Positions 1-39,538 of a stretch of 64,000 nt of DNA are shown in pieces. The translations under genes and the position numbers were made by a program. The DNA is from Candidatus Omnitrophota bacterium (lineage in GTDB: Bacteria > Omnitrophota > Gorgyraeia > JAFGHF01), in assembly GCA_016939375.1 (NCBI GenBank), contig JAFGHF010000034.1, forward strand, positions 13,950 through 77,949. Direction: 5' to 3'. Every line of letters begins with the position of its first letter. The stretch's first letter is position 1. A model generated the notes under the pieces. The model made no database searches and was not told the DNA's origin. It saw only the letters and a list, made by a program, of their open reading frames with translations.

Positions 1-391
1 TTCCCGGCTTAAGATTCACCGATGTCTTCCAAGTACCGGTTTTGCTTTTTTTCATCGTAATGCCCTTTTCGCTCCAAGAATTAAAATCACCGGTGATATA
101 CACTTTCTTTGCTTCTGGCGCAGAAAGCTGAAAATCAACTTTCTTCTTTTTCGTTCCCTTTGTGGCCATTGTTGCCTCCTTTCTTGCAGCTTTAATGGCC
201 GGTGGTTGTATTAACTCATCTACTGTCACATTAAAGACCTTGGCGATCCTATCCAGCATCGAAGCCCTCAGTTCCCTCTTATTGGCCTCCCACATACAAA
301 TAGCCTGCCGGGAGACACCTAATAGCCTCGCTAGGTCCTCCTGTGTCAAATTGACCGTACTTCTTAATTCTCTTAATCTCTTTCCAACCAT
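1..391 (-). CDS. Partial transcriptional regulator: N-terminal XRE-family helix-turn-helix fused to a CBM48/glycogen-binding-like domain (C-terminus runs off the window start)
   Basis: My own minus-strand translation from the ATG at 391-389 gives MVGKRLRELRSTVNLTQEDLARLLGVSRQAICMWEANKRELRASMLDRIAKVFNVTVDELI..., a classic XRE HTH. This is followed by ...KKVYITGDFNSWSEKGITMKKSKTGTWKTSVNLKPG, which has the E-set/CBM48 pattern (VxxxGxFNxW ... GxW). The frame is still open at position 1 and the ORF is absent from the track because it is truncated. Confidence 0.5.
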   Translation of the reverse strand, partial: MVGKRLRELRSTVNLTQEDLARLLGVSRQAICMWEANKRELRASMLDRIAKVFNVTVDELIQPPAIKAARKEATMATKGTKKKKVDFQLSAPEAKKVYITGDFNSWSEKGITMKKSKTGTWKTSVNLKPG

Positions 392-520
392 ACGCTTTTA
401 TGCCACATTTTGTTAACTTACCTTTGTTTTAAGGAACTCAATTATGGCATACAATTTTGTCCTTGTCAATATAAATTTTTGGGTTTTTGTTGAATTCTAT
501 TGTGTACTTTTTATACACAA

Positions 521-558
521 AAAAGCCCCTTTTTATCTCGTCATAAAGGGGCTTTATG
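521..558 (-). terminator. Rho-independent terminator hairpin downstream of pfk (could act in both directions)
   Basis: Plus strand reads aaaaGCCCCTTTTtatctcgtcatAAAGGGGCtttat. This is a GC stem with a loop, followed on the minus strand by a U6 run, and it sits 60-95 nt past the pfk stop. Confidence 0.5.
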
Positions 559-615
559 GACTTGCTAACAAATCCCTTGGCTTGCTTTTAAGGGCCTATT
601 TACTCAAAAAATATT

Positions 616-1707
616 TTAATCTCCAAAACAAGTATTGATAGAGCGGCCGGCTTTAATTAAGGTATGATTAAGAGGAATAACCCTTGGGCCTTTGGCAACT
701 TCTCTCAAAGGTACAGGGACGAACTTGCCTCCTCTTATTCCCACCATACATCCGAATTTTTTCTGCTCAAAAAACTCTGCCGCCTTTGTACCTAATTGCG
801 TGGCCAGGATCCTGTCAAAAGGAGTAGGCGTACCTCCCCTTAAAAGATGCCCCATGACCACAGTACGCGTGGCCAGCCCTGTGATTTCCTCCAGTCTTTC
901 TTCCAAGGCAAAGCCGACTCCTCCTAAACGGGCCTGAATCGTACTTTCTTTTATTATCCTCTTTACCACTACATCTCGGCCTTTTTCTCGAGCACCTTCG
1001 GCAATCACGATAATGCTGAATTTTTTGCCTTTTTTATTTCTCCCTTTGACCACCCGGGCCACCTTTTCAATATCATAAGGGATTTCGGGGATTAAAATTA
1101 TATCTCCGCCCCCGGCCAATCCTGAATAAAGTGCTATCCATCCGGCGGTACGCCCCATGACTTCGACGATCATGATCCGGTGATGAGATTGAGCGGTGGT
1201 ATGGATTCTGTCTATTCCCTCTGTAGCGATATAGACCGCAGTGTCAAAACCGAAAGTGGTATCCGTACCGCGGATATCGTTATCAATGGTCTTAGGCACG
1301 CCCACTACGGGGACTGCGTCCCGGTAAAGCTTAGAGGCGATATGCAATGTACCGTCGCCACCTATACAAATGAGGCAATCTACCTTTAACCTTTTGATAT
1401 TGCGCAATGCCTTTTTAGAGACATCCCGGAACTCCAGCCTTTTGCCTACTTTTGTCGCGTAGCGATAGGGATTAGCTATATTGGAAGTACCTAATATTGT
1501 ACCGCCTAACGTAAGGATCCCCGATACGTCTTTATAGTTCAGGCGTCTATAGCGATTGTTGATCAACCCTTCATACCCGTCTTTAAAGCCGATCACCTCC
1601 GCACCCTGATCATTGATTATTTTTTTTGTCGCTGCCCGGATTACTGCGTTGAGCCCCGGACAATCTCCGCCTCCGGTAAGGATAGCTACTCTCATTTTTC
1701 TCTTCAT
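616..1707 (-). CDS. pfkA: 6-phosphofructokinase (PfkA family)
   Basis: N-terminal RVAILTGGGDCPGLNA, plus GGDGT, PKTIDNDI and MGR motifs; 363 aa. Confidence 0.9.
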   Translation of the reverse strand: MKRKMRVAILTGGGDCPGLNAVIRAATKKIINDQGAEVIGFKDGYEGLINNRYRRLNYKDVSGILTLGGTILGTSNIANPYRYATKVGKRLEFRDVSKKALRNIKRLKVDCLICIGGDGTLHIASKLYRDAVPVVGVPKTIDNDIRGTDTTFGFDTAVYIATEGIDRIHTTAQSHHRIMIVEVMGRTAGWIALYSGLAGGGDIILIPEIPYDIEKVARVVKGRNKKGKKFSIIVIAEGAREKGRDVVVKRIIKESTIQARLGGVGFALEERLEEITGLATRTVVMGHLLRGGTPTPFDRILATQLGTKAAEFFEQKKFGCMVGIRGGKFVPVPLREVAKGPRVIPLNHTLIKAGRSINTCFGD

Positions 1708-1733
1708 GACGACCGCCTTTTGAAATAAAAGAT

Positions 1734-4208
1734 TTAAATATTGATCTTATATTTTTTTTCGGAATGCAAATAATGCAATCTACCGCGGATTTCAACAGGC
1801 AATTTGAATGTTTTAGACTTTGATTTAATCATAGAGACAACCAGCTGTCTGCGCGTTATAGACAAAGAGACCAATTTTTTACGATAGCAAAATTTAAGCC
1901 TGATATTGCGCCAGTGCTTAGGCAGATCCGGATCAATGCTTAAGCCTTTGGAGGTCATTTCTAGGCCCGCAAAAGCTCTTAGTACGATATCGATCGAACC
2001 TCCCATTACTCCTATATGCACTCCCTCAGGGGTAGTCCCTCCTTGAGTATCATAAATATCCGACCTCAATACTTCTACGAACCAATGCCAGGCTTCCCTG
2101 GACCTGCCCAGAAGATGGGTTATATAACAATGCACGACCTTGCTTAATGTCGAACCATGCGATGTGCGTTTAATATAATATTTAAAGTTTTTCTTGAGCA
2201 TATTTTTAGTAAAGCCGTATCCCATCTTATGCAAAAGACTTTCTACTTCCTGTAGAGAAAAAAGGTAAAACATCATCAACACGTCTGCCTGCTTGGCTAC
2301 TTTGTAATCATCGGGAGATTTGCCTTCAGCCTTAAGGATCCTATCTATGCGCTGGATCTTGCCGTATTTCGCACTATAGGCCTGCCAATTCAGTTCCTTT
2401 AACTTGAAATATCCGGCAAATTGGCTTATTATTCCTTCGCGCGTGATGATTATTTTAATCTTACGGGCGATGTCTTCCCAAGAGGCAATTTCTTTTTGAC
2501 TTAATCTCGCCTTTTTTAAAATACGTTTTTTATATGTTGGGGGCAAAATCTGCATAATCTCCTGGGCCCTAAACAATATCCAAGCGATGAGGACATTGGT
2601 ATAAGCGTTGTCTTTTAATCCCGGCTTCTTTGCCTTGGGAAGCCGCTCATGGAACTCATCGGGCCCCATGATGCCATATGTGTGATACCTTTTGTCTTTT
2701 TCATCGTAGCTGACAAGGCTAGACCCAAACTGCGCGATAGACAATATGATTTCCGCCCCATAGCGCAGGAAAAAGTCAAAGTCACCGGTCCTATTCCAAT
2801 ATTCCCAAATATCATAGGCGATATCAAAAGAGATATGTCTTTGTATAGAACTGTAATCCGGGCCCCATTTATTGGATACCGGATTAAGATGTATGACCTG
2901 GGTCTCTTCCTCTCCGCTAGAGGCACTTTGCCAAGGAAACATCGCCCCTTTATACCCATGTTCTCTGGCGTATTTTCTGGCTTGGTCTAAACGCCTATAC
3001 CTATACATAAACAAAGCCCTCGATATCTCCGGATAATGTAGGTCGAAAAACGGCGTAACGTATATCCTGTCCCAGAATACGTGACCGCGATATGCCTCCC
3101 CATGTAATCCTCTTGCCGGCAGTCCTGCGTCAATATCAACGTTGTGCGGGGAAGCGGTCTGTAAAAGATGGAATGTATGCAAACGCAATACCTTCTGCGA
3201 AAATATATCTCCTTCTATTTGGATATCAAACCTATCCCATAACTTATGCCAAGCTTCTTTATGCGTCTTTAGCAGGGCTGCGAAAGTAGGCGCTTCTTTA
3301 GCAGAAACAATCGCGCTTTTAAGCGCATTGCGCACTCCTTTATCCCTGGAAGTGTAGATAGCGACAATCTTTTCTATTTCATAGCGTCTTCTCTTGTGTA
3401 TGTATATTTTAAATTCTTGATAAATTGCTTTTTTCTTTTTGGCAAGTATCATGACCGGGGGCTTTAGTTCCTTTCCTTGAGAAAAAATGCGCACCCTGGC
3501 CGCTTGGCAGATATCGATTTTGGAATGGCTTGTCTTCATGGAAAGATAGGAAATATTCTTTTTTAACATGCCTGAAAAATTGGTCTTTAGATGTTTAGAG
3601 TTTAACTTTCTATAGCGGGCTACACCTGTATTCTGTAGAGTCCCGTCCAAAGCAGACCTGATAGTTATCCAACCCTCATAGTTTTCGGGAACGATACTGT
3701 ATTTTATTGCTGCGCGATGAGGATCGACCATGTGTACTATTCTCTCTGTTTCAATAGTAGTCTTGCGGTCCTTTCTGTCCTGCAGAGAGACTTTTCTGTT
3801 CAAAGCTCCATTGCGCATATCTAGTTCTTTATGATAACAAAGGATATTGCTCGCCGATGGCACAAGCCAATGCTCTTTACCGATGCGGAAGGTCAAAAAT
3901 AACCAATTGGGACAGTTGACCATATCATCGTTAAATATGGTACGGCCGGCGATATGCGTAGGTGTCTTATTGTAAACTCCGGAGATGTAAGTGCCGGGGT
4001 AGTGCACCTTAGAAGCTATGGATTCAGTCGCCGCTCCCCTGGTCCCAAAATAGCCATTGCCCAGAGTACACAAAGCTTCTCTTAAGCTCTCGTCATTGGG
4101 TTCGAATTTCTTATATACCAGCTTCCAGGCCGAGCCTTTTTCTATCTTTCTTCTTATCTTTTTATGCCGTACCCTTGATAACATTTTCGAATAACCTCTT
4201 TGTTTCAT
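1734..4208 (-). CDS. Glycoside hydrolase family 65 disaccharide phosphorylase (trehalose/kojibiose/maltose phosphorylase-like)
   Basis: Shows the LGNGYFGTRG N-terminal signature and the YGIMGPDEFHE catalytic region typical of GH65. The track ORF extends to 4322 but overlaps the upstream gene by 160 nt. The start was therefore placed at internal Met 4208 (4184 is also possible), which is just before the conserved W..VY..F.P..E region. Confidence 0.8.
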   Translation of the reverse strand: MKQRGYSKMLSRVRHKKIRRKIEKGSAWKLVYKKFEPNDESLREALCTLGNGYFGTRGAATESIASKVHYPGTYISGVYNKTPTHIAGRTIFNDDMVNCPNWLFLTFRIGKEHWLVPSASNILCYHKELDMRNGALNRKVSLQDRKDRKTTIETERIVHMVDPHRAAIKYSIVPENYEGWITIRSALDGTLQNTGVARYRKLNSKHLKTNFSGMLKKNISYLSMKTSHSKIDICQAARVRIFSQGKELKPPVMILAKKKKAIYQEFKIYIHKRRRYEIEKIVAIYTSRDKGVRNALKSAIVSAKEAPTFAALLKTHKEAWHKLWDRFDIQIEGDIFSQKVLRLHTFHLLQTASPHNVDIDAGLPARGLHGEAYRGHVFWDRIYVTPFFDLHYPEISRALFMYRYRRLDQARKYAREHGYKGAMFPWQSASSGEEETQVIHLNPVSNKWGPDYSSIQRHISFDIAYDIWEYWNRTGDFDFFLRYGAEIILSIAQFGSSLVSYDEKDKRYHTYGIMGPDEFHERLPKAKKPGLKDNAYTNVLIAWILFRAQEIMQILPPTYKKRILKKARLSQKEIASWEDIARKIKIIITREGIISQFAGYFKLKELNWQAYSAKYGKIQRIDRILKAEGKSPDDYKVAKQADVLMMFYLFSLQEVESLLHKMGYGFTKNMLKKNFKYYIKRTSHGSTLSKVVHCYITHLLGRSREAWHWFVEVLRSDIYDTQGGTTPEGVHIGVMGGSIDIVLRAFAGLEMTSKGLSIDPDLPKHWRNIRLKFCYRKKLVSLSITRRQLVVSMIKSKSKTFKLPVEIRGRLHYLHSEKKYKINI

Positions 4209-5754
4209 CAGGTGAAGCGATCCAAAAGTCAGCTGCCGATTCTGTATTTTCCTGGGCAACCAAGACTCCTGTCCCCCTTGTGCGAACAGCCCTAAAAGCA
4301 TCTTCATCTGTGGTATCATCACCTATATATACTATACAGGTGTCAGACCAGGAGATCTTTAAAGCCTGGATAATCCATCTGACAGCTTTGCCCTTATCCC
4401 AGTCGATCTGAGGCATTATCTCAAACACTTTTTTACCGTTCATTAAACGTATGTCTTTATCTTCCTTGATAACACCTTTAATACATTCTTTGATCTCGGC
4501 AAGATATTTTTCCTGCACAAGACGATAATGGACAGCAACGCTGAACTTTTTATATTCTAACAATATCCCTTGTATATCCCCTAATTTTTGGGAGAGAGTT
4601 TTGGTGATCTCTTTTATTTTAGGAGTGAATTCTTTGGCCTTTGGCTGGATAATAGAAAAATCCGGTCCTGAAATGTCAAAGCCGTGGCTTCCCGCATAAA
4701 TCAACCCTGGGATATCCACAAGCTTCTGCACATCTTCTCTCATTCTCCCGCTGATCACCGCTACTGTATGCAGCTTTGATAGTTCAGTTATGACCTTGCG
4801 CATATCTTCTGACATCACAGCCAATTCCGGACGCTTCACAATAGGCGTTAAAGTGCCGTCATAATCTAAAAAGAAGGCTACTTTCTTGCCCTGCAAGAAG
4901 ACCTCTTTGCCTGTGCGTGAATAATAAGGATTTATGATTGTCGTCTCTGTTTCAACTTTTTCTGTTTTATCCCAGTTTTCAAACAGAGGTCTTGGCTTTC
5001 TATGGAACCACTGTTCGATCCTTTCGATGTCTATTTCGGATAAGTCCCCAACTACTATGTCTGCTCCGTTTTCTAGAAGCTGTACTTCGTTTTCTTCTCT
5101 GGCTACCCCTAAGACTAGTCCAAAGCCACCGTTTCTGCCGGCCTGGACACCCGAGGTAGCATCCTCCACGACCACCGAGCGTGCTGGTTCCGACCCGATG
5201 TTGCGAGAGGCCTTGACAAATATATCCCCTTCGGGCTTACCCTTAAGCCCTAACTCCGCGGAGACTAGACCATCGACCCTGGTCTCAAACAATTCTTCAA
5301 GACCCACGGCCTGCAGGATAACCTGACAACTTTTGGAGGAAGATGCAACTCCTACCCGCACTCCGGCTGCCTTGAGCTGCTTAATAAGCTCTACTGTAGA
5401 AGCATAGACCTCTGCCCCTTCTTTTTTGATAATATCCAAAAACATCTTGTTTTTTTTGTTGCCGATGCCGCAAGCGGTCTCTTCTTCCGGCCCATCCTGC
5501 GGGTCTCCGTATGGGATATGGATACCCCGAGACTCAAGAAAACTTCTTACACCCTCATATCTCGGCTTTCCATCGACATAGGGCAGGTAATCTCCCTCGT
5601 GCGTAAACTCACGAAACGGCTGGCCATCTCTTTTTTCGCGCATGCGCATATATTCATCAAACGTAGCCTTCCAGGATTTACCGTGCACCAGTGCTGTCTG
5701 CGTGATCACGCCATCCAAATCAAATATGACTGAATCGAACGAATATTTCTTCAT
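4162..5754 (-). CDS. Fusion protein: beta-phosphoglucomutase (HAD-IA) N-terminal half plus trehalose-6-phosphate phosphatase-like (OtsB/HAD-IIB) C-terminal half
   Basis: N-terminal VIFDLDGVITQT ... KGKPEGDIF ... VVEDATSGVQAG is the beta-PGM motif set. C-terminal VAFFLDYDGTLTPIV ... IYIGDDTTDEDAF matches the OtsB-type DYDGTL signature. Length 530 aa. Confidence 0.8.
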   Translation of the reverse strand: MKKYSFDSVIFDLDGVITQTALVHGKSWKATFDEYMRMREKRDGQPFREFTHEGDYLPYVDGKPRYEGVRSFLESRGIHIPYGDPQDGPEEETACGIGNKKNKMFLDIIKKEGAEVYASTVELIKQLKAAGVRVGVASSSKSCQVILQAVGLEELFETRVDGLVSAELGLKGKPEGDIFVKASRNIGSEPARSVVVEDATSGVQAGRNGGFGLVLGVAREENEVQLLENGADIVVGDLSEIDIERIEQWFHRKPRPLFENWDKTEKVETETTIINPYYSRTGKEVFLQGKKVAFFLDYDGTLTPIVKRPELAVMSEDMRKVITELSKLHTVAVISGRMREDVQKLVDIPGLIYAGSHGFDISGPDFSIIQPKAKEFTPKIKEITKTLSQKLGDIQGILLEYKKFSVAVHYRLVQEKYLAEIKECIKGVIKEDKDIRLMNGKKVFEIMPQIDWDKGKAVRWIIQALKISWSDTCIVYIGDDTTDEDAFRAVRTRGTGVLVAQENTESAADFWIASPDETKRLFENVIKGTA

Positions 5755-5779: not shown

Positions 5780-6391
5780 TTATTCCTTTCCGATTTTGAT
5801 TACTTTCACACTATCAAATATGCAGGTACCTTTTCCGGGCGTGCGCGGCTCGAACTGAAAACTCATGATCGGAAAATCCAGAATATCATTCTTCTGGGCG
5901 GTCTGCGGCTGCCAATCCGTGCGCACAAAAAATTTATTAAACGGGCAGGCTATCTCCCTCCAGCCCTCAAAATCATCGTTAAGTAAAAAACGCCATATCT
6001 CTCCGCCGGCGTCTTTGACATCCAAAGCGATCATAGCACCGCTTTTGGCTCCATACATAGACAGAGCAAGCGCCTGATATGCGTTCCAACGTACTTTCTG
6101 AGGTTTAAGCAACCAACGTGCGGCTCCTTTTACATCAAGATTATAACCGCGCGCACACCACATATATCCTTTTGGGTGAAGTTGATAAGTAAGCTTAATC
6201 GCTTGATCTCCGCATGTCTTCAACTGCTTCTCTGCGTAGATCTCTAAAGACGAATCGGCAGATGAGCCAAAATCCACTGTTTCACTATTTAACTCTCCCT
6301 CAAAACTATCGATCAAAACCTGATCGGGGACACTACAACCGGCACAGATCACAACAAAGGTTACTGCCCCGGCCAAAAATAATCTTTTCAT
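5780..6391 (-). CDS. Hypothetical lipoprotein (signal peptide plus Cys lipobox; possible beta-sandwich or carbohydrate-binding-like domain)
   Basis: MKRLFLAGAVTFVVICAGCSV is a lipoprotein signal peptide. The rest has no recognisable catalytic motif. The gene is tightly packed between ldcA and the beta-PGM fusion. Confidence 0.45.
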   Translation of the reverse strand: MKRLFLAGAVTFVVICAGCSVPDQVLIDSFEGELNSETVDFGSSADSSLEIYAEKQLKTCGDQAIKLTYQLHPKGYMWCARGYNLDVKGAARWLLKPQKVRWNAYQALALSMYGAKSGAMIALDVKDAGGEIWRFLLNDDFEGWREIACPFNKFFVRTDWQPQTAQKNDILDFPIMSFQFEPRTPGKGTCIFDSVKVIKIGKE

Positions 6392-8368: not shown

Positions 8369-9817
8369 TTACTTTATAGCGGTTTCGGCTTGCTTATCTT
8401 TCTTTATAGAATTACATTTTTCCGGACATTCGCCTGTCCAGCAATATAGACACAACTTTTTCTTTGGCAGGCCGATAGCATCGACCATATCGCCTACCTT
8501 CTGATATCTTAAACTGCTCACTTCTAGATCTTTAGTGATCCATTCTACCATCCGCTTGTATTCATCCGTGCTCTCATCCAAGTATTTGGAGACATCCTCT
8601 ATGTCCCGTCCCTCTAGGCTACGGATAGCTTTGCGGGCCGCCAATTCATTGATGCTACGCGTAGATAGGTTAAATTTACAGGGAAACATTAACGGCGGAC
8701 AAGCGGGCCTGATATGTATCTGGCGGGCCCCGGCATCCCATAGTTTCTTGACAGTGAAATTTTTAAGCTGGGTACCTCTGACAATTGAATCTTCGCAGAC
8801 GACTATCCTATTTCCATCGATTATCTCTTTAATAGGGATAAGCTTTAATTTGGCTATTAAATCACGGGACTCCTGCGAGGGCGGGGTGTAACTGCGGCCA
8901 TATCCCGGCGTATATTTTACCAGGGGCCGCTTAAACGGTTTTGCTGACTCTATGGCATAACCTAAGGCATGGCCGGTCCCGGAATCAGGCACACCGGAAA
9001 CAATATCCACCTCTATATCTCTGTCGCGCTTGGCCAAAAGCCTGCCACATCTTTCCCTTACCTGTTCGACATTTATCCCTTCATAGCTGGAAGCTGGAAA
9101 ACCGGTATATATCCAAAGAAAAGCACAGATTTGTTCGGTGTCTTGAGCTTGTTTCTTCTGCACCAGCCCACCTTCATTGATCAATACTATTTCTCCGGGC
9201 TGAAGATACCTTTCGACCTCAAGCCCGAGGTTGGGAAAGGCGCTTGTCTCCGAAGTCACCGCCCATTCATTCTGCCGCCTTCCTATAACCAGGGGAGTAT
9301 AGCCTAATCTATCGCGGGCGGCATAGACCCCGTCTTTGCTCAATAATAAAAGCGAACAAGAGCCGACTATATCTTCAAACATCCTCTCTATGCCGTCGAT
9401 TATGTTTTCGCCCTGACTGATTAATTTAGCCGCTAATTCCGTGGTATTGACCGTGCCCTTGCTTACTTCGCTGAAAGAAATCCCTTTATTTAAGAGTCGT
9501 TCTGCCAATTCCTCGGCATTTTCTATTAGTCCGTTTGTGACAATGCAAAAGGGGCCAAACTTGGACTGCAGATAAATAGGCTGTTCATCAAAGGCGCTGA
9601 TTGCCCCGATGCCTTTTGTGCCTTTCATTCTTTTATAATCTTCGTAGAACTTGGATTTAAACTGGCTTTGACTGATGCTATGTATCTGGCGCACAAAATC
9701 ATCTCCTAAAACAGCCATCCCGCCGTACTCAGTACCTAGATGTGAATGGTAGTCGGTGCCAAAAAACAGTACTTCCGTACAGTCTTTTTCTGATACCGCG
9801 CCAAAGATCCCGCTCAT
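8369..9817 (-). CDS. Amidophosphoribosyltransferase-like protein (PurF family) with Ser in place of the N-terminal nucleophile Cys
   Basis: Full PurF architecture is present: Ntn glutaminase domain (MSGIFG..., YTGFPAS), PRTase motif IVVCEDSIVRGTQL, VSGVPDSG, and C-terminal Cys ligands (PACPP..FPC, CLYCWTGEC) like those of [4Fe-4S] PurF. Residue 2 is encoded by AGC (Ser) rather than TGC (Cys). A strong GGGGAGGAAAAG SD precedes the ATG. Confidence 0.75.
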   Translation of the reverse strand: MSGIFGAVSEKDCTEVLFFGTDYHSHLGTEYGGMAVLGDDFVRQIHSISQSQFKSKFYEDYKRMKGTKGIGAISAFDEQPIYLQSKFGPFCIVTNGLIENAEELAERLLNKGISFSEVSKGTVNTTELAAKLISQGENIIDGIERMFEDIVGSCSLLLLSKDGVYAARDRLGYTPLVIGRRQNEWAVTSETSAFPNLGLEVERYLQPGEIVLINEGGLVQKKQAQDTEQICAFLWIYTGFPASSYEGINVEQVRERCGRLLAKRDRDIEVDIVSGVPDSGTGHALGYAIESAKPFKRPLVKYTPGYGRSYTPPSQESRDLIAKLKLIPIKEIIDGNRIVVCEDSIVRGTQLKNFTVKKLWDAGARQIHIRPACPPLMFPCKFNLSTRSINELAARKAIRSLEGRDIEDVSKYLDESTDEYKRMVEWITKDLEVSSLRYQKVGDMVDAIGLPKKKLCLYCWTGECPEKCNSIKKDKQAETAIK

Positions 9818-25505: not shown

Positions 25506-26969
25506 TTAAAACTTGAACCTGCGCTCTACCCCCAAGATGCCTTCGTCTTTCCTTAAACGGAGCTTGATAGTCTTATCTCCGAAAATCTTGTATTCTAACC
25601 CCAGTTCATTTGTATATACATCTTCCAATCCCATACTGTGTTCGTCAATAAATGTATCGAAGGTGACCTTAACATCCTCGGCGATGTTCTTGGACATATG
25701 TACAGTATTATAGTGATCGTCCCGAGTTATATCCCAGCCCTTCCAAAATATTCCTTTGTCCGCTGAGAAGTTCAACTCAAAGCTATTGATGTTAGAAAAG
25801 TCTATTTCCCCATCCATGATGAAAGATTCGTCTTCACGACTGACCCGCGAATCGACGATAAAGATCTTAGGATATTGGCCTTCGAGATTAATATCGGCAC
25901 TGATAAAATCCAATTCGCCAAAATTCCCGTTCTTGGACTCCAAATACCCCTCAAGCTTAAGGGTATCTAAGGGCCCCGTCATCTTGATCAGGCCATTGAC
26001 CAGGCCGGAAAAATCCGGGCGCTCGGGATACGTCAGCTTGGCCATCAATTCATGGGGTGCGGCCTGAAAAAAGTTCAAAGACAGGTCCGCTGAGAAAGGT
26101 TTTTCTAGCTCCACAATGCCGCGCAGATCATACTCTTCCCCTATAGCACAGGTCAAGATACGCAACTGCTTATCTATGATCTCAAACGAGGAGTTTAGCT
26201 CGGAGAAAGGGCGGTTATTGAGTACCGTGCCGTATGTCTTGAGGGTGCCGGATATCTTTTCCTTTGCTTTATCCACCCCGAGCTTTTTGGTAATAGATAA
26301 AGTAGCGTTGGTAAGTATATCAAAGTTTTTCGCTTTTAAGTGGTTGAGGTTGAGGGTAACCAACAATTTTTCAGAGGTCAACTCTCCGTACATATTTAAC
26401 GCATCTTGAGGATTATCCTTTAACACCGCCTTAATATCCTGAAAGTAAAGGCCGTCACTATTTAAGAAAAGTCTGCCTTCAAGGTCTGTAAGCAAAGGTG
26501 CTTCTTTATCAAATAAGACTGTACCTTTTTCTAAGATGAACACAAAGTCCCTAGAGATAAATTTGGGTATTGTGTCTTGAGGAGCAGATTTCAAGCCAGA
26601 TTGCATCTTTTCTCTGGGTTGACCAGAAAGCCTGAGCGTAGGAGAGATAAGCCTCAATATAGGCACGTCCTCGGGCTCGGAAAATAAAAGCTCCTTTAAG
26701 CTATAGTCGATACGGGCCTGGTCTACCGTGATATCAAAGTTAAATCCGGAATCACCGCTGAAGCTGATCTTTAGTTTTTCCACTACTACTCCGCTTAAAA
26801 TGGCTGGCTTGATCTTTCCGATAGAAAGCTCGCAATGAAGGCTCTTGGCCAGGCTTTCCTCAATTAGTGTCTTTACCTTTTGAAAGAATAGCTCCTTTCG
26901 AATATAGACAAAGACGAACATAGCAGAAAGCAAAAGAAACGCAATAAATGTTTTTCGCCCTCTACGCAA
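25506..26969 (-). CDS. Hypothetical membrane-anchored protein (possible AsmA-like periplasmic lipid-transfer protein)
   Basis: Single N-terminal TM (FIAFLLLSAMFVFVYI) then a 460-aa soluble region. Overlaps the clpC stop by 8 nt and lies immediately upstream of mlaE. The family assignment is an inference from context only. Confidence 0.4.
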   Translation of the reverse strand: MRRGRKTFIAFLLLSAMFVFVYIRKELFFQKVKTLIEESLAKSLHCELSIGKIKPAILSGVVVEKLKISFSGDSGFNFDITVDQARIDYSLKELLFSEPEDVPILRLISPTLRLSGQPREKMQSGLKSAPQDTIPKFISRDFVFILEKGTVLFDKEAPLLTDLEGRLFLNSDGLYFQDIKAVLKDNPQDALNMYGELTSEKLLVTLNLNHLKAKNFDILTNATLSITKKLGVDKAKEKISGTLKTYGTVLNNRPFSELNSSFEIIDKQLRILTCAIGEEYDLRGIVELEKPFSADLSLNFFQAAPHELMAKLTYPERPDFSGLVNGLIKMTGPLDTLKLEGYLESKNGNFGELDFISADINLEGQYPKIFIVDSRVSREDESFIMDGEIDFSNINSFELNFSADKGIFWKGWDITRDDHYNTVHMSKNIAEDVKVTFDTFIDEHSMGLEDVYTNELGLEYKIFGDKTIKLRLRKDEGILGVERRFKF

Positions 26970-29397
26970 AGATAAGCTCCTCTTTTTTGCGAGTGACTAC
27001 AATTTTTTTGGACTGTTTAGGTTTATTTTTGATTATTTCTTCAGAAAGAGGATCTTCCAAAAACCTTTGGATCGTGCGTTTTAGAGGACGGGCACCGAAA
27101 ACAGGATTGAAGCCTTTTTCAATAAGAAATTCCTTTGCTTCCTTTGACAGCTCCAAGGTAAGCTGTTTATCGGCCAGCCTTTTCTGCACTTCCCCTATTT
27201 CGATCTCTACTATTTTAAACAAATCGTCCTTGGTTAATGGACGAAAGACATTTATATCGTCGATGCGGTTTAAGAATTCCGGCTTGAAAGTCCGCCTTAC
27301 CTCGTCAAGAAGTTTCTTTTTCATTTCACTGAAGGTAACTTCCTCCTGCTGAGACTTAAAGCCGAGCGAACCTTGCTTCCTAAGCATCTCCGCTCCGATG
27401 TTGGAAGTCATGATCAAAATGGTATTGCGGAAGTCTACCTTTCTGCCAAAACTGTCGGTAAGCCTTCCGTCTTCTAAGACCTGCAGGAGAATATTGAAGA
27501 CATCGGGATGGGCCTTCTCTATCTCATCCAAAAGCACTACCGAGTATGGCCTGCGCCTTACTTTCTCGGTCAACTGCCCCCCTTCCTCATAACCCACATA
27601 TCCCGGAGGGGCACCGACCAACCGAGAGACATTAAACTTCTCCATATATTCCGACATATCAAGCTGTATAAGGGCATCCTCATCGCCAAACATAAATTCT
27701 GCCAAGGCCCTGGCCAAAAGCGTCTTGCCTACTCCTGTTGGTCCCAGGAAGACAAAAGAACCTATTGGCCTGCGCGGGTCTTTGATGCCGGCTCGGGAAC
27801 GTCTCACTGCACGGGCGATAGCAGCAATAGCTTCGTCTTGACCGATCACCCTTTTGTGCATTTCTTCTTCCATTTTTAAAAGTTTCTCTGATTCCTTCTG
27901 TTCTAATTTGGAAACAGGCACCCCAGTCCATTTGGAAACGATCTGGGCAATATCCTCTTCTCCTACAGTAGGTATCACTTCTATCTTTTTCTTATTCCAA
28001 CTTACTTTTACTTTGCCTAATTCTTGTTTGGCCTCCCTCTCTTGATCTCTAAAATGGGCGGCTTTCTCAAAATCCTGGCTTTTTATTGCCGCCTCTTTTT
28101 CTTTCCTGATATCTTCTATCTTTTTCTCTAACTCCTTTAGATCCGGAGGTACGGTAAGCGCCGAAAGCCTGGCCCTTGCTCCGGCTTCATCCATTAAGTC
28201 TACCGCTTTATCGGGAAGATAACGCCCGGTTATATAACGGTCGGAAAGCTTGGCCGCTTCTTCCAGCGCTTCATCAGTAAACTTCACTTTGTGATGGGCT
28301 TCATATTTATCCCTTAGTCCTTTCAATATATCTATGGTCTCTTTCACCGTTGGAGGCTCAACCATGATGGTCTGAAACCTACGTTCCAAAGCCGCGTCTT
28401 TCTCGATATATTTGCGGTATTCGTCCAGAGTAGTGGCCCCGATACATTGGGCCTCTCCGCGAGAAAGGGCTGGTTTTAAGATATTGGATGCGTCTATAGC
28501 GCCTTCCGCCCCCCCGGCCCCGACCAAGGTATGCAACTCATCAATAAACATGACGATGTTCTCGGATTTCTTGATCTCGTCCATGATCGCCTTGATGCGT
28601 TCCTCAAACTGGCCACGGTACTTAGTACCCGCTACCATCAAGGCCAAATCTATAATAACTATACGTTTATCCTGTAGCACTTCAGGAACGTTGCCTGCTA
28701 CTATTTGCTGGGCCAGGCCTTCGACAATAGCTGTCTTGCCTACTCCTGCTTCACCTAAAAGCACAGGGTTATTCTTGGTGCGCCGACTCAAAATCTGGAT
28801 CACCCTCTCGATTTCATTTTGTCGGCCAATGACCGGGTCGAGTTTTCCTTCGTTTGCCAAGTGGGTCAGGTCTCTACCGAACGCATCGAGCGCCGGGGTC
28901 TTGCTTTTAGCCTTAGGTCCTGGTGCATTAGAAACAGCCGGTCCACTTTGCCCGGGGATACCTTGACCCAAAAGCTCCATTATCTCATGCCTGACTTTAT
29001 TTAAGTCTAAGCCTAGGCCCAAAAGTACTTGGGCGGCAACTCCTTCGCCTTCGCGCAATAGACCCAAGAGCAGATGTTCAGTGCCGATATAATTATGGCC
29101 CAGGCTCCTAGCTTCTTCCATCGACAGTTCGATTACGCGTTTGGCCCGGGGGGTAAAAGGAATATCTCCGGAGACAGAAGAAGCAGGCCCTGGTTGGACC
29201 AATTTTTCTATTTCCAGCCTTATCTTGTCTAAACCCAAACCCATATTCTGTAATACCGCGCTAGCCACTCCTTCTCCTTCGCGAATCAAGCCCAGGAGGA
29301 TATGCTCAGTGCCGATATAATCGTGATTAAAACGCTTGGCTTCTTCCTTAGCCAAAATAATTACTTTTCTGGCTCGCTCAGTAAAACGATTAAACAT
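26962..29397 (-). CDS. clpC: ATP-dependent Clp protease ATP-binding subunit ClpC
   Basis: Starts [20 protein letters not shown] (Clp_N repeat x2), two AAA+ modules ([16 protein letters not shown]), a UVR-like middle segment and sensor motifs. The track extends to 29661, but the canonical ClpC N-terminus begins at ATG 29397. Confidence 0.9.
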
Positions 29398-29399
29398 AT

Positions 29400-30464
29400 T
29401 TATTTGTCCTCCATATCTTTTGCCAGTTCTTTCCTGATGAATTCTGCCCTTTTTACATCTCGTTCTTGGGCGGAAAATGTCTTTCCTTCTAGCTTTTGCA
29501 GATGTGCCGGTTGAATATAGATGAAGATCTTGTTTATCGTCTGGATGTCCAGACCTTTCAGGATACCCATATCTACCCCTAAACGCACGGAAGAAAATAG
29601 ATCTACGGCTTCTTTGCTGGTAATAATATGGGCGTTTTTCAAAGTAGCGAATGCCCGCCAAATGCGGTCTTCAATCCGGGAGCGGTCCTGTTCAAAGAGC
29701 GCCCGCCTTGCGTTTTGTTCATGTCCTATTACCTGTTTAATGATCCGGTTAATATTATCCAGCAGGTCTTCTTCCGAATGCCCTAAAGTAACCTGATTAG
29801 AGATTTGAAAAAAGTTGCCACTGGCCTCGGTGCCTTCACCGTAAAAGCCCCTTGCCGTTAAGCTTAACTTGGTAATAGCCTGCAGGACCTTATTGATCTG
29901 TTTTGACATGACCAATGCCGGCAAATGCAACATTACCGAGGCACGCAAGCCTGTACCTGTATTGGTGGGACAGGCGGTTAAATAACCCCAATCTTCAGAA
30001 TAGGCAAAATCCAGCTTTTTCTCAAAGTCCTTATCTATCCTTTTAATAATCTGCCAAGCCTCATCCAGATTAAAACCGGATTGCATCACCTGCGTCCTTA
30101 AGTGGTCCTCCTCGTTGATCATGATGCTTAAAATCTCTTGGTCCCCGACTATTACGGCCTTGTGGTTGGCCCGCAGGGCGTGCTCTTTAGAAATAAGGTG
30201 GCGTTCGATAAGGAACTGTTTATCCAGGTTGTTTAAATCAGCCATATACAGGAAAAGCGCGTTTTTGGTGTAACTGCTCGAGCTGACCGCATCCTTGACC
30301 TTCATCAGCACTTCTTCTTTCTTTTTCGTGTCCGCCCAATGCGAAAAAGGGATCCCCTTTAAATTCCTGGCCAACCTTACACGGCTGGAAATGACAATAT
30401 TAGAATAGGGGCCAGAACACTTTAACCATTCACAAGTCTGCTTAATCAGATCATTTAACCTCAT
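29400..30464 (-). CDS. mcsB: Protein arginine kinase McsB
   Basis: ATP:guanido phosphotransferase fold, active-site CPTNTGTGLRASV; 354 aa; stop is 2 nt from the clpC start. Confidence 0.85.
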   Translation of the reverse strand: MRLNDLIKQTCEWLKCSGPYSNIVISSRVRLARNLKGIPFSHWADTKKKEEVLMKVKDAVSSSSYTKNALFLYMADLNNLDKQFLIERHLISKEHALRANHKAVIVGDQEILSIMINEEDHLRTQVMQSGFNLDEAWQIIKRIDKDFEKKLDFAYSEDWGYLTACPTNTGTGLRASVMLHLPALVMSKQINKVLQAITKLSLTARGFYGEGTEASGNFFQISNQVTLGHSEEDLLDNINRIIKQVIGHEQNARRALFEQDRSRIEDRIWRAFATLKNAHIITSKEAVDLFSSVRLGVDMGILKGLDIQTINKIFIYIQPAHLQKLEGKTFSAQERDVKRAEFIRKELAKDMEDK

Positions 30465-38062: not shown

Positions 38063-39538
38063 TGTTGCCAGTAGGGTTATAGCAATGCAGAAGTAGACAA
38101 AGATGTCCCCATGTTTAGTGTAAAAACTGGGCATGGAGCCTATCTTTAAGTCTTCGCTGGCCCAGCCTTCGGTTACTATATCCCGGCCCAGATAATCATC
38201 GACTCTTTTTAAAATCCTGCCCCGGGGATCTATGAAACAAGAAACACCCGTATTTGCGCTGCGGACTACGCTGACCCTGTTTTCTACTGCGCGAAATATC
38301 GAAGACTGTAAATGCTGATAAGGCTCTGCGGAGGAGCCAAACCAGGCATCGTTAGTCATATTTACCGCTAAGTTCGCCCCGCGCGAAACAAAAATGCGTA
38401 CCAGATCTGAAAACACGTCTTCAAAACAAATAAGGGCATTACATCTTACGCCGGGGACAACGCCAAATATCGTATACTCATCTCCCCGGCTAAAATTCCC
38501 GATCAAACCGGCAAAAGAAAAACGAGAGAAAAACTCAGGCCAGGGTATAAACTCCCCGAATGGGACCAGGCGCAGCTTATCATAACGCTGGAGGATCTCT
38601 CCGGAAGATAATAACGTGGCGCTGTTATGGATCTTTGAGCCCTCTGCCTCATGGGGCGTACCAAGCAAAAGATAGGACGGAGCAATGCTCTTAGATAAAG
38701 AACTAATTTCTTCTAAGAGCTCGGGTTCGCTTTCCAGAAACCCCGGCACCGAAGTCTCCGGCCAGATGATAATGTCCGGCTTATTAAAAGCGGCCTCTTT
38801 TGTCAAACGGCGATACTTGGCCAAAATAGATTCCCGAAAACGCGGATCCCACTTTTGCACCTGCGGGATATTACCTTGTATAACCGCGACTTTGACGCTT
38901 TGACCTTCTATCGGATGAAACAGCTTAAAATATCCATAAGCCAATGAAAAAAGCACGGGCAAGAAAGCGCAGAGTACAAAGATTGATCTTGCAAACCTTT
39001 TTTCAGTTCTCTGTCCTTTGTTTTCCAAAACAAGGCTTACTGTCTGATAAATCCCGACATTGACTAAGACAATCAAAAATGATACGCCATATGCCCCGGT
39101 GATATCGCTGATCTGGATAATCGGTAAAACTAAATATTGGGAATAGGCTAAAAGCGCCCAATTAAATCCCAGAATTGGCAGATGGCCGCGCACAAATTCC
39201 AAAACGACCCAGGCCGCAGGAATAAAAACAAGATTAAGCAGTCTAAATCTTTTGAATGCAAAAATAAATATACCAAAGGCTGCAAAATAAAACGCCAAAT
39301 AACACATAAGTACCACAAAGCCCAAGGTACTTACATAATTTATCCAATATAATGTGAGAGAGAAAAAAACTAAGCCTACAAGATAAGAGAGCAAAAAAGC
39401 GGACCGGGGATTTTTCTGTCTTTTAAGCGCAAAGAGCCAAGGGACAAGGGCAAACCAGGCAAAGATTGCAATACCGGGTTTAGGAAAGGCCAGGGTCAGG
39501 AAAATAGCGGATAAGATTGGTAAAAACAATATCATCAT
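38024..39538 (-). CDS. lnt: Apolipoprotein N-acyltransferase
   Basis: Multi-TM N-domain plus CN-hydrolase domain (VIQGNIPQ, IIWPETSVP, ICFEDVF catalytic Cys). The last about 13 codons are encoded by repeat R2. Confidence 0.85.
   Translation of the reverse strand: MMILFLPILSAIFLTLAFPKPGIAIFAWFALVPWLFALKRQKNPRSAFLLSYLVGLVFFSLTLYWINYVSTLGFVVLMCYLAFYFAAFGIFIFAFKRFRLLNLVFIPAAWVVLEFVRGHLPILGFNWALLAYSQYLVLPIIQISDITGAYGVSFLIVLVNVGIYQTVSLVLENKGQRTEKRFARSIFVLCAFLPVLFSLAYGYFKLFHPIEGQSVKVAVIQGNIPQVQKWDPRFRESILAKYRRLTKEAAFNKPDIIIWPETSVPGFLESEPELLEEISSLSKSIAPSYLLLGTPHEAEGSKIHNSATLLSSGEILQRYDKLRLVPFGEFIPWPEFFSRFSFAGLIGNFSRGDEYTIFGVVPGVRCNALICFEDVFSDLVRIFVSRGANLAVNMTNDAWFGSSAEPYQHLQSSIFRAVENRVSVVRSANTGVSCFIDPRGRILKRVDDYLGRDIVTEGWASEDLKIGSMPSFYTKHGDIFVYFCIAITLLATTTALSTGFRKYM

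What the first reader, a model, noticed from the sequence alone, without database searches (positions are those of the whole stretch)
1..5754. Sugar-phosphorylase module: GH65 phosphorylase, beta-PGM fused to a T6P-phosphatase, pfk, and an XRE regulator with a glycogen-binding-like domain
The GH65 phosphorylase releases beta-glucose-1-phosphate. Beta-PGM is its usual partner, feeding G6P to the adjacent phosphofructokinase. Fusing beta-PGM to an OtsB-type trehalose-6-phosphate phosphatase (diagnostic FLDYDGTLTP) is unusual. I am not aware of this two-HAD fusion being characterised. It suggests a pathway running through trehalose-6-phosphate, which would be a non-OtsA route to or from trehalose. 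One possibility is that the GH65 enzyme acts as a T6P phosphorylase making T6P from beta-G1P and G6P, with the fused phosphatase then yielding trehalose. The alternative is the degradative direction. The GH65 start overlaps the fusion-gene stop by 23-47 nt, suggesting translational coupling, and the module ends with a clean terminator after pfk.
Basis: partly seen in the sequence, partly recalled or inferred. Interest (0 to 1): 0.6.

Follow-up and report, generated by a model that had tools for sequence, protein, structure and literature searches.

The report
Trehalose synthesis module without OtsA
Two overlapping genes in an uncultured Omnitrophota bacterium encode the three enzyme activities that could make trehalose from glucose-6-phosphate alone; this set is conserved across many phyla, is untested, and matches the domains of the unexplained OtsB1 protein of the tuberculosis bacillus.

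Summary
On the minus strand lie a 530-aa beta-phosphoglucomutase/trehalose-6-phosphate-phosphatase fusion (5754-4162), a GH65 phosphorylase (4184-1734, 23-nt overlap), a phosphofructokinase (1707-616), a strong hairpin terminator, and a separately promoted, truncated XRE-CBM48 regulator.

The GH65 has 5 of the 6 published residues that mark trehalose-6-phosphate (T6P) phosphorylases, and an intact phosphate site. Both HAD halves keep their catalytic residues.

The fusion is not rare. It occurs in over 100 protein clusters at 50% identity and in many phyla. In 39 of about 44 genome loci a T6P-phosphorylase-type GH65 follows it directly. The three domains also occur as three separate genes, as T6PP-GH65, and as one ~1,320-aa protein in Mycobacterium and Nocardia, the architecture of M. 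tuberculosis OtsB1 (function unknown).

Best explanation (inferred, not assayed): G6P to beta-G1P; beta-G1P + G6P to T6P + Pi; T6P to trehalose + Pi. This would make trehalose without a nucleotide sugar or OtsA.

The pfk and the regulator are local additions and are not conserved elsewhere. I found no paper describing this as a natural pathway. Interest is moderate to high.

The parts
4162..5754 (-). Gene for a 530-aa bifunctional protein: N-terminal HAD-IA beta-phosphoglucomutase domain fused to a C-terminal HAD-IIB trehalose-6-phosphate phosphatase domain
   Evidence: Pfam and NCBIfam hits. 100% identical to P0001, 'trehalose-phosphatase [Candidatus Omnitrophica bacterium]'. AlphaFold model has pLDDT 91.2 and pTM 0.86.
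5005..5736 (-). Beta-phosphoglucomutase domain (aa 7-250), Rv3400 type with a ~60-aa insertion in the cap
   Evidence: Best solved relative is 8h5s, the crystal structure of M. tuberculosis Rv3400: E 9e-59, 44% identity, same cap insertion. It keeps D12, D14, R65, S140, K141, K173 and E197-D198, which match L. lactis beta-PGM D8, D10, R49, S116, K117, K145 and E169-D170. It scores below the NCBIfam beta-PGM cut-offs.
4177..4890 (-). Trehalose-6-phosphate phosphatase domain (aa 289-526)
   Evidence: TIGR00685 174.8 bits (cut-off 68). Best solved relative is M. tuberculosis OtsB2, 5gvx, E 7e-52. D297 and D299 are invariant and S335-G336-R337, K441 and D479/D480/D483 are conserved in 54 diverse homologues.
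1734..4184 (-). GH65 glycoside phosphorylase (816 aa), predicted trehalose-6-phosphate phosphorylase; its start overlaps the fusion gene by 23 nt
   Evidence: Three GH65 Pfam domains. Best solved relative is 9lb6, E 7e-153. Specificity positions read DQAQDE. General acid Glu in GPDEF and a phosphate site of S-T, K and H (residues defined in PMC8626586).
4195..4200 (-). Shine-Dalgarno-like AAGAGG, 10 nt upstream of the GH65 ATG at 4184 and inside the end of the fusion gene
   Evidence: Read directly from the sequence.
616..1707 (-). 6-phosphofructokinase (363 aa), last gene before the terminator; a local addition, not part of the conserved module
   Evidence: Pfam PFK E 2e-104. TIGR02483 PFK_mixed scores 425.3 bits against a cut-off of 430.6. 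Absent next to the module in 3 close relatives and nearly all of 80 loci.
515..555 (-). Intrinsic terminator: 11-bp stem, 12-nt loop, U-run
   Evidence: dG -22.8 kcal/mol, z -4.05.
441..469 (-). Sigma-70-like promoter of the XRE-CBM48 gene (TTGACA, 17 nt, TG-n-CATAAT)
   Evidence: 11 of 12 matches, the best in 9 kb. The total number of promoter-like sites in the region is no higher than in shuffles.
1..391 (-). XRE-type HTH regulator with a CBM48 (glycogen-binding-type) domain, cut off by the window edge; its own transcription unit
   Evidence: HTH_3 55.5 bits and CBM_48 34.2 bits, both above the Pfam cut-offs. No homologue was found beside the module in the 80 other loci.

Best explanation
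The conserved core is two genes: the beta-PGM/T6PP fusion and the GH65. Together they encode a three-step route that makes trehalose from glucose-6-phosphate without a nucleotide sugar.

1. The N-terminal HAD domain (beta-phosphoglucomutase) interconverts G6P and beta-glucose-1-phosphate.
2. The GH65 enzyme, a trehalose-6-phosphate phosphorylase running in its synthetic direction, joins beta-G1P and G6P to give T6P and Pi.
3. The C-terminal HAD domain (T6P phosphatase) hydrolyses T6P to trehalose and Pi. This step is irreversible and pulls the two reversible steps.

The net reaction is 2 G6P -> trehalose + 2 Pi. No OtsA and no UDP- or ADP-glucose are needed.

What is shown here: the family and subfamily assignment of each domain, intact catalytic residues, and very strong conservation of the gene linkage, including gene fusions. 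What is inferred: the substrates and the direction. In this genome the pair sits in one transcription unit with pfk, so hexose phosphate could be split between glycolysis and trehalose. That arrangement is specific to this lineage.
For: GH65 specificity.
- Residues at the six published specificity positions (CsKP numbering 64, 392, 394, 402, 416, 585; PMC8537180) read DQAQDE. The T6P-phosphorylase consensus is DQGQDE, which was validated experimentally on the Caldithrix abyssi enzyme.
- The other consensus motifs are different: kojibiose phosphorylase EEAPxx, trehalose phosphorylase TRIGPP, maltose phosphorylase KV[MF]NES.
- Of 43 GH65 genes lying next to the HAD genes in other genomes, 28 read DQGQDE exactly and the rest differ at one or two positions. 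All keep the acid Glu and the phosphate site.
- Bit scores against solved structures: 514 for 9lb6 (DQGQDE), 390 for a kojibiose phosphorylase, 203 for a maltose phosphorylase.

The T6P phosphatase half passes the NCBIfam equivalog model. Both HAD active sites are conserved in 54 homologues of 31-60% identity.

Linkage.
- In 39 loci from many phyla (Omnitrophota, Bacteroidota, Planctomycetota, Chlamydiota, Proteobacteria, Actinomycetota, Gemmatimonadota, Methanomicrobia and others) the GH65 follows the T6PP domain on the same strand. The median gap is 47 nt.
- The three domains occur in four states: three separate genes, 2+1 as here, T6PP-GH65, and a single ~1,320-aa protein.
- Pairwise distances of the three parts are correlated (r 0.57-0.75, Mantel p 0.001).

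A T6P phosphatase has no role in the known catabolic TrePP route. No PTS, trehalose transporter or sugar kinase lies beside the module in the window or in three close relatives.

The synthetic direction works in vitro. The Caldithrix enzyme made T6P from beta-G1P and G6P (PMC8537180). A TrePP-based cascade gave a 93% yield of T6P (PMC13121652).

One close relative has a glycogen phosphorylase gene directly upstream (L084). That fits a flow from glycogen through hexose phosphate to trehalose.
Against: - Nothing here is biochemical.
- The window's GH65 has Ala rather than Gly at position 394.
- The N-terminal domain scores below both NCBIfam beta-PGM cut-offs: TIGR01990 101 against 189, TIGR02009 144 against 153. 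Its assignment rests on similarity to Rv3400.
- From my own knowledge, the beta-PGM equilibrium lies about 28:1 towards G6P. Beta-G1P supply from G6P is therefore uphill and depends on being pulled by the phosphatase step.
- In M. tuberculosis, which has the fused form, OtsA-OtsB2 is the essential route. A delta-otsB1 mutant has no obvious phenotype, and OtsB1 was reported to lack T6P phosphatase activity (PMC11046441). A 2024 preprint notes that this report showed no data (10.1101/2024.11.12.623260).
- I could not check whether this organism lacks OtsA, TreT, TreS or TreYZ. The 64-kb window has none, but that is only a small part of a genome.
Confidence: 0.6

Rival explanations
1. Same enzymes, different source of beta-G1P. 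Another GH65 phosphorylase acting on maltose, kojibiose or alpha-glucan fragments supplies beta-G1P. The beta-PGM domain then runs in its favourable direction and turns part of the beta-G1P into the G6P acceptor. The module would convert a disaccharide or glucan into trehalose without ATP. This is a natural version of the in vitro cascade of maltose phosphorylase, beta-PGM and TrePP.
For: In the Omnitrophota locus L002, a stand-alone short beta-PGM and a second GH65 with the kojibiose-phosphorylase motif (EEAPHR) lie 1.3 kb upstream of the module. The in vitro cascade is described in PMC13121652. This version avoids the uphill beta-PGM step.
Against: No second GH65 is present in the 64-kb window. 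None is present next to the module in most of the other loci. It would not explain why beta-PGM, rather than a second phosphorylase, is the universally linked partner.
Confidence: 0.2
2. Catabolic module as in Lactococcus lactis. T6P is split by the GH65 into beta-G1P and G6P, and beta-PGM makes a second G6P that goes to glycolysis (hence the pfk). The phosphatase domain only acts as a safety valve or regulator of toxic T6P.
For: TrePP plus beta-PGM is the known catabolic pair (PMC12125463; Andersson 2001 as cited there). pfk is co-transcribed in this window. Rv3400-type beta-PGM is needed for growth on trehalose in M. tuberculosis (10.1101/2025.11.20.689507).
Against: No PTS, trehalose kinase or transporter is linked to the module in the window or in relatives. 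A phosphatase that destroys the pathway's own substrate would not be expected to be its most tightly fused partner across phyla, with intact catalytic residues. The pfk linkage is not conserved.
Confidence: 0.12
3. The enzymes act on a related but different phosphorylated alpha-glucoside. The GH65 would transfer glucose from beta-G1P to another sugar phosphate or acid phosphate, and the HAD-IIB domain would dephosphorylate that product to give a different compatible solute.
For: GH65 acceptor range is broad and new specificities keep appearing (PMC11442529). The window enzyme departs from the consensus at position 394, and actinobacterial members have S at position 64.
Against: The phosphatase half passes the T6PP equivalog model with a large margin. 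Five or six of the six specificity positions match T6P phosphorylases throughout the linked family.
Confidence: 0.06

Closest known systems
OtsA/OtsB (TPS/TPP) trehalose synthesis pathway
   Same: The same intermediate (T6P) and the same last step, carried out by a homologous HAD-IIB T6P phosphatase. The C-terminal half matches M. tuberculosis OtsB2 (5gvx) at E 7e-52.
   Different: T6P would be made by a GH65 phosphorylase from beta-G1P and G6P. In OtsAB it is made by a GT20 synthase from UDP- or ADP-glucose and G6P. No nucleotide sugar is used, and beta-PGM takes the place of the UDP-glucose-forming enzymes.
Lactococcus lactis trehalose catabolism (PTS, TrePP, beta-PGM; Andersson 2001)
   Same: The same two enzyme families, a GH65 T6P phosphorylase and a beta-PGM, encoded together.
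   Different: That pathway starts from T6P made by a PTS and has no T6P phosphatase. Here a phosphatase is fused to the mutase, no PTS is linked, and the inferred direction is the opposite one.
M. tuberculosis OtsB1 (Rv2006), 1,327 aa, DosR regulon, function unknown
   Same: The same three domains in the same order: HAD-IA, then Trehalose_PPase, then GH65 N/m/C. This was shown for Nocardia P0320 and for at least 120 mycobacterial clusters. These proteins keep the DxD, DYDGT, GDDxTDE and GPDE motifs and the S-T, K, H phosphate site.
   Different: It is a single polypeptide rather than two overlapping genes. It is only about 35-48% identical to the window proteins, depending on the domain. Actinobacterial GH65 parts read SQGQDE or SQGPDE. 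That Rv2006 itself has this architecture is inferred from its length, its annotation ('Glycosyl hydrolase, otsB1', PMC7753917; PMC11046441) and its congeners. I did not align its sequence.
Trehalose phosphorylase (TreP, GH65)
   Same: An inverting GH65 enzyme that uses beta-G1P as donor and forms an alpha,alpha-1,1 bond.
   Different: TreP uses free glucose as acceptor, has the motif TRIGPP and short active-site loops (PMC8537180, PMC11442529), and needs no phosphatase.
In vitro cascades for T6P production (maltose phosphorylase + beta-PGM + TrePP; PMC13121652)
   Same: The same chemistry: beta-G1P + G6P -> T6P, with beta-PGM balancing the two hexose phosphates.
   Different: These are engineered mixtures that the authors call new-to-nature. 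The module here is a natural, conserved gene set with the phosphatase step added.

Membership tests
GH65 glycoside phosphorylase | Three-domain GH65 architecture with the general acid Glu | tested here: met
   Pfam GH65 N, m and C domains. Glu in GPDEFHE aligns with the acid Glu of CsKP and 9lb6.
GH65 glycoside phosphorylase | Phosphate site of Lys, His and two consecutive Ser, rather than the general-base Glu of the hydrolases (PMC8626586) | tested here: met
   S-T (HGST), K (KQAD) and H (GVHIG). The pattern is identical in 9lb6 and in 42 linked homologues.
Trehalose-6-phosphate phosphorylase (EC 2.4.1.216; De Beul subgroup 22) | Specificity motif DQGQDE at CsKP positions 64/392/394/402/416/585 | tested here: inconclusive
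   The window enzyme reads DQAQDE, 5 of 6, with Gly394 replaced by Ala. 28 of 43 syntenic homologues read DQGQDE exactly.
Trehalose-6-phosphate phosphorylase (EC 2.4.1.216; De Beul subgroup 22) | Catalyses T6P + Pi <-> beta-G1P + G6P | not testable with these tools
   Needs an enzyme assay.
Trehalose-6-phosphate phosphatase (TIGR00685 equivalog / PF02358) | Score above the curated cut-off, and HAD motifs I-IV | tested here: met
   174.8 bits against 68.05; Pfam 175.6 against 27. DYDGT, SGR, K441 and GDDTTDED are conserved.
Beta-phosphoglucomutase (TIGR01990 equivalog / TIGR02009 subfamily) | Score above the curated cut-off | tested here: not met
   101.4 against 189.4, and 144 against 153.35. 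The ~60-aa cap insertion lowers the score.
Rv3400-type beta-phosphoglucomutase | Close similarity to the characterised M. tuberculosis enzyme, including the cap insertion, the catalytic DxD and the distal phosphate-binding residues | tested here: met
   8h5s E 9e-59, 44% identity, aligned without large gaps through the insertion. D12, D14, R65, S140, K141, K173, E197 and D198 are present. Rv3400 activity is reported in 10.1101/2025.11.20.689507.
OtsB1-type HAD-T6PP-GH65 protein | All three domains in one polypeptide | tested here: not met
   Here they are two genes in different reading frames overlapping by 23 nt. The domain order is the same as in P0320 and P0267.
6-phosphofructokinase | PF00365 above cut-off; TIGR02483 subfamily | tested here: met
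   PF00365 349 bits. TIGR02483 425.3 bits, just under its 430.55 cut-off. The choice between ATP and PPi as phosphoryl donor was not resolved.
XRE-family regulator with CBM48 | HTH_3 and CBM_48 above the Pfam cut-offs | tested here: met
   55.5 against 23 and 34.2 against 22.4, on the 130 residues that lie inside the window. The protein is incomplete.

The most novel reading that the evidence does not exclude
The linked beta-PGM, T6P-phosphorylase and T6P-phosphatase set is a further natural pathway of trehalose biosynthesis, independent of nucleotide sugars (2 G6P -> trehalose + 2 Pi). It is spread across bacteria and some archaea. Its single-polypeptide form is the M. tuberculosis dormancy-regulon protein OtsB1 (Rv2006), whose function has been unknown for about twenty years.
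Probability: 0.5. Interest if true: 0.75.

Novelty: new variant of a known kind. Interest (0 to 1): 0.62.

Why it matters
Trehalose is a major stress protectant. In mycobacteria it is also a cell-wall precursor and a drug-target pathway. Reviews list the OtsAB, TreYZ, TreS, TreT and TreP routes and treat TrePP only as a way to degrade T6P (PMC12125463). A 2026 paper calls TrePP-based T6P synthesis 'new-to-nature' (PMC13121652).

If this module makes trehalose, several things follow.
- It is a cheaper route, because no UTP or ATP is spent on sugar activation. That would suit energy-limited anaerobes such as Omnitrophota, and hypoxic, non-replicating mycobacteria.
- Genome-based calls of 'no trehalose synthesis' would be wrong for some organisms. 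For example, Saelkia tenebricola carries the module (L001) but is listed with glycogen synthesis only in PMC8542988.
- It gives a direct, testable hypothesis for OtsB1.
- It offers ready-made fused enzymes for making trehalose or T6P without cofactors.

Tried and rejected
- I wanted to see whether the biochemically characterised T6P phosphorylases of Ca. Kuenenia stuttgartiensis and Caldithrix abyssi sit next to a two-HAD gene.
- Exact look-ups of the window's GH65 and PFK, meant to extend the contig beyond the window start and complete the XRE-CBM48 gene, found nothing on record. The look-up of the fusion protein returned only a 3-kb contig.
- Nine literature searches were run. They covered GH65/T6P/beta-PGM, Rv2006/OtsB1, TrePP with biosynthesis, the PDB codes 9LB6/9LB7, Omnitrophota with trehalose, anammox or Kuenenia with trehalose, and fusion terms. 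None returned a description of this module as a natural pathway, and none returned a publication for 9lb6. The library lacks most subscription journals, so prior description cannot be excluded.
- I considered and rejected pfk and the XRE-CBM48 regulator as conserved members of the module. tblastn against 80 loci found PFK near the module only in L046 and L069, and found no XRE-CBM48 or CBM11 homologue. Three close Omnitrophota relatives lack all of them.
- I rejected maltose, kojibiose and trehalose phosphorylase assignments on the specificity motif and on bit scores. I rejected a GH65 hydrolase because the phosphate site is intact.
- The consensus terminator scan did not list the pfk terminator; folding showed it.
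- Rfam and tRNA scans found nothing.
- The promoter scan gave no more hits than shuffled sequence. The 5' end of the transcription unit therefore remains undefined. Genes from at least 8325 down to 616 are co-directional, with gaps of 26 nt or less.
Full report
**What is in the window.**
All the genes in question are on the minus strand.
- A 530-aa ORF (5754..4162) has a HAD-IA domain at aa 7-210 and a Trehalose_PPase domain at aa 295-500. It is 100% identical to a protein annotated 'trehalose-phosphatase' from a Candidatus Omnitrophica metagenome-assembled genome, which identifies the source of the window.
- Next comes a GH65 gene with all three family domains. The two genes therefore overlap by 23 nt in different frames.
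- A 363-aa phosphofructokinase follows (1707..616).
- After it comes an 11-bp hairpin with a U-run (dG -22.8 kcal/mol, z -4.05).
- Downstream there is a good sigma-70-like promoter (469..441). It precedes a gene for an XRE helix-turn-helix protein with a CBM48 domain, which runs off the window start.
- Upstream, the fusion gene is only 25 nt from a gene for a CBM11-domain protein. Further co-directional genes follow with gaps of 26 nt or less, so the 5' end of the transcription unit is not defined.
- The rest of the 64 kb is housekeeping. I saw no OtsA, TreS, TreYZ, TreT, PTS or sugar transporter.

**The GH65 enzyme.**
- Its best solved relative is 9lb6, deposited as 'Trehalose-6-phosphate hydrolase' but clearly a GH65 protein (E 7e-153, 514 bits). 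Next are the Caldicellulosiruptor kojibiose phosphorylase (390 bits), the glucosylglycerol phosphorylase (229 bits) and the L. brevis maltose phosphorylase (203 bits).
- De Beul et al. showed that six correlated positions (CsKP numbering 64, 392, 394, 402, 416, 585) separate GH65 specificities. T6P phosphorylases read DQGQDE. They confirmed this by showing that the Caldithrix abyssi enzyme makes T6P from beta-G1P and G6P (PMC8537180).
- I mapped these positions through the HMMER alignment and a MAFFT alignment. The window enzyme reads DQAQDE, 9lb6 reads DQGQDE and CsKP reads EEAPDE.
- The general acid Glu and the phosphate site (two hydroxyl residues, Lys, His; defined in PMC8626586) are intact. 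This is a phosphorylase, not a hydrolase.

**The two HAD halves.**
- The C-terminal half passes the NCBIfam T6P-phosphatase equivalog model by a wide margin. Its best solved relative is M. tuberculosis OtsB2.
- The N-terminal half falls below the NCBIfam beta-PGM cut-offs. It is nevertheless 44% identical (E 9e-59) to 8h5s, the crystal structure of M. tuberculosis Rv3400, and shares the same ~60-aa insertion in the cap. Deleting rv3400 raises beta-G1P 30-fold (10.1101/2025.11.20.689507).
- Residues equivalent to L. lactis beta-PGM D8, D10, R49, S116, K117, K145, E169 and D170 are present.
- In an alignment of 54 full-length homologues that are 31-60% identical to the window protein, the catalytic motifs of both halves are invariant or nearly so.
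- An AlphaFold model is confident throughout, including the linker (pLDDT 91.2, pTM 0.86).

**How common the fusion is, and what it is linked to.**
- A search of 1.8 billion representative proteins found 2,223 hits below E 1e-30. Most of the 150 best hits listed (over 100, each standing for a cluster at 50% identity) match over the whole ~520 aa. There are also several ~1,300-aa proteins.
- A scan of one genome per species returned 80 loci. Full-length fusions occur in Omnitrophota, Latescibacterota, Chlamydiota, Synergistota, Binatia, Bacteroidota (including the isolate Pontibacter anaerobius), Planctomycetota, Gemmatimonadota, Desulfobacterota, Alpha- and Gammaproteobacteria (including Legionella saoudiensis and Caenispirillum salinarum), Actinomycetota and a Methanomicrobia MAG.
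- tblastn of the window proteins against these loci showed a GH65 homologue (39-56% identical) directly downstream on the same strand in 39 loci. The median gap is 47 nt. That is nearly every case in which the contig continues.
- Of 43 such GH65 genes, 28 read DQGQDE and the rest differ at one or two positions.
- The three domains occur in every fusion state:
  - three adjacent genes (Rubrobacteraceae, Gemmatimonadota, Caenispirillum, Inquilinus, Rhodospirillales);
  - 2+1, as here;
  - T6PP-GH65 (Ktedonobacterales);
  - one polypeptide (Desulfohalobiaceae, Sandaracinaceae, Mycobacterium, Mycolicibacterium, Nocardia).
- Pairwise distances of the three parts are correlated (r 0.57-0.75, Mantel p 0.001). 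This fits inheritance as a unit, although shared species phylogeny contributes to the correlation.
- PFK, the XRE-CBM48 protein and the CBM11 protein are not found beside the module elsewhere, not even in three Omnitrophota relatives of 65-67% identity.

**Mechanism.**
The known role of TrePP with beta-PGM is catabolic. In Lactococcus a PTS delivers T6P, TrePP splits it, and beta-PGM converts the beta-G1P (PMC12125463). A T6P phosphatase has no place in that scheme, because it would destroy the substrate. Yet here the phosphatase is the partner most tightly joined to the mutase and the phosphorylase, with its active site conserved, and no PTS or kinase is linked.

The simplest reading is the reverse flow:
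1. G6P <-> beta-G1P
2. beta-G1P + G6P -> T6P + Pi
3. T6P -> trehalose + Pi

The last step is irreversible and pulls the first two. TrePP works well in the synthetic direction in vitro (PMC8537180; PMC13121652).

From memory, not checked here: Andersson et al. 2001 found an equilibrium favouring T6P, and the beta-PGM equilibrium is about 28:1 towards G6P. If so, the first two steps roughly cancel and the phosphatase supplies the driving force.

The source of beta-G1P is the least certain step. In locus L002 a stand-alone beta-PGM and a kojibiose-phosphorylase-type GH65 (EEAPHR) lie just upstream. In some organisms beta-G1P may therefore come from another phosphorolysis, and the mutase would then run in its downhill direction. 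A glycogen phosphorylase gene directly upstream in L084, and the CBM48 regulator here, point to a link with glycogen.

**Comparison with what is known.**
- The pathway shares T6P and the final phosphatase step with OtsAB, but it replaces the GT20 synthase and its nucleotide sugar.
- M. tuberculosis OtsB1 (Rv2006) is 1,327 aa, is homologous to T6P phosphatases, is annotated as a glycosyl hydrolase, belongs to the DosR regulon, and has no known function (PMC11046441; PMC7753917; 10.1101/2024.11.12.623260).
- Nocardia P0320 and at least 120 mycobacterial protein clusters of about 1,220-1,340 aa have exactly the HAD, Trehalose_PPase, GH65 architecture, with the catalytic motifs present.
- I did not align Rv2006 itself, so its membership is a strong inference and not a result.
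- Against a biosynthetic role in M. tuberculosis: OtsA-OtsB2 is essential and a delta-otsB1 mutant has no obvious phenotype (PMC11046441).
- I found no paper that describes this module as a natural pathway. The library omits most subscription journals.

**Verdict.**
- The enzyme assignments are well founded. The direction of the pathway is inferred, with about 0.6 confidence.
- The instance in this window is one of thousands and is already annotated piecemeal. The module as a pathway appears to be unrecognised. It is widespread and can be tested directly, and it has a plausible bearing on a long-unexplained mycobacterial protein.
- I rate it a new variant of a known kind, with interest 0.62.

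Noticed in passing
Proteins P0133, P0137, P0142, P0146, P0147, P0149 and others; L083 7436-7819; L084 85-468 and 7656-8030: Many Omnitrophota orthologues of this GH65 carry a C-terminal response-regulator receiver domain (P0137 aa 838-948). Stand-alone receiver genes flank the module in two close relatives. This suggests the phosphorylase is controlled by two-component phosphorylation. The window copy has no such domain.
   Followed up: partly
L002 2692-5687 (Omnitrophota MAG JAFGCB010000014.1): A stand-alone short beta-PGM and a second GH65 with the kojibiose-phosphorylase motif EEAPHR lie 1.3 kb upstream of the fusion + TrePP-type pair. This makes a larger gene island centred on beta-G1P.
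   Followed up: partly
L084 1883-3562: In a relative 67% identical to the window fusion, a glycogen phosphorylase family gene (PF00343) sits directly upstream of the fusion gene. It is preceded by a GATase_7 gene like the one at window 8369-9817.
   Followed up: no
PDB 5gvx (M. tuberculosis OtsB2); loci L060, L071, L076, L077, L079: OtsB2-type mycobacterial T6P phosphatases (~390-420 aa) align with the window fusion from about residue 100-180 onward. Their N-terminal domain therefore matches the C-terminal part of the beta-PGM domain. OtsB2 looks like a truncated descendant of the two-HAD architecture.
   Followed up: no
window 5780-6391 (-): A 203-aa protein with a signal-peptide-like N-terminus and a CBM11 domain (E 2e-18, no NCBIfam hit) ends 25 nt upstream of the fusion gene and may be co-transcribed with it. 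It is not found beside the module elsewhere.
   Followed up: partly
Protein P0002 (871 aa): This protein consists of three to four tandem copies of the Rv3400-type beta-PGM domain and has no T6PP domain. It may be a real repeat protein or an assembly artefact.
   Followed up: no
L001 (Candidatus Saelkia tenebricola MAG): This MAG carries the fusion + TrePP-type GH65 pair. The paper that named it lists only glycogen synthesis for it, not trehalose synthesis (PMC8542988). This is an example of the module being overlooked in metabolic reconstructions.
   Followed up: no
L004 (contig labelled Candidatus Pacearchaeota archaeon): This locus has a module 51-55% identical to the Omnitrophota one. That is closer than most bacterial copies. 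It suggests a mis-binned contig or a recent transfer.
   Followed up: no
window 39535-43449 (-): The SecA is 1,304 aa, far longer than usual. The SecA_DEAD match spans aa 7-439 for a 290-position model, and there is a long gap between the P-loop and wing/scaffold domains. These imply large insertions.
   Followed up: no
window 26962-30464 (-): A ClpC-type AAA+ chaperone with a UVR motif overlaps an ATP:guanido phosphotransferase (McsB-like protein arginine kinase) gene. This pairing is best known from Firmicutes.
   Followed up: no
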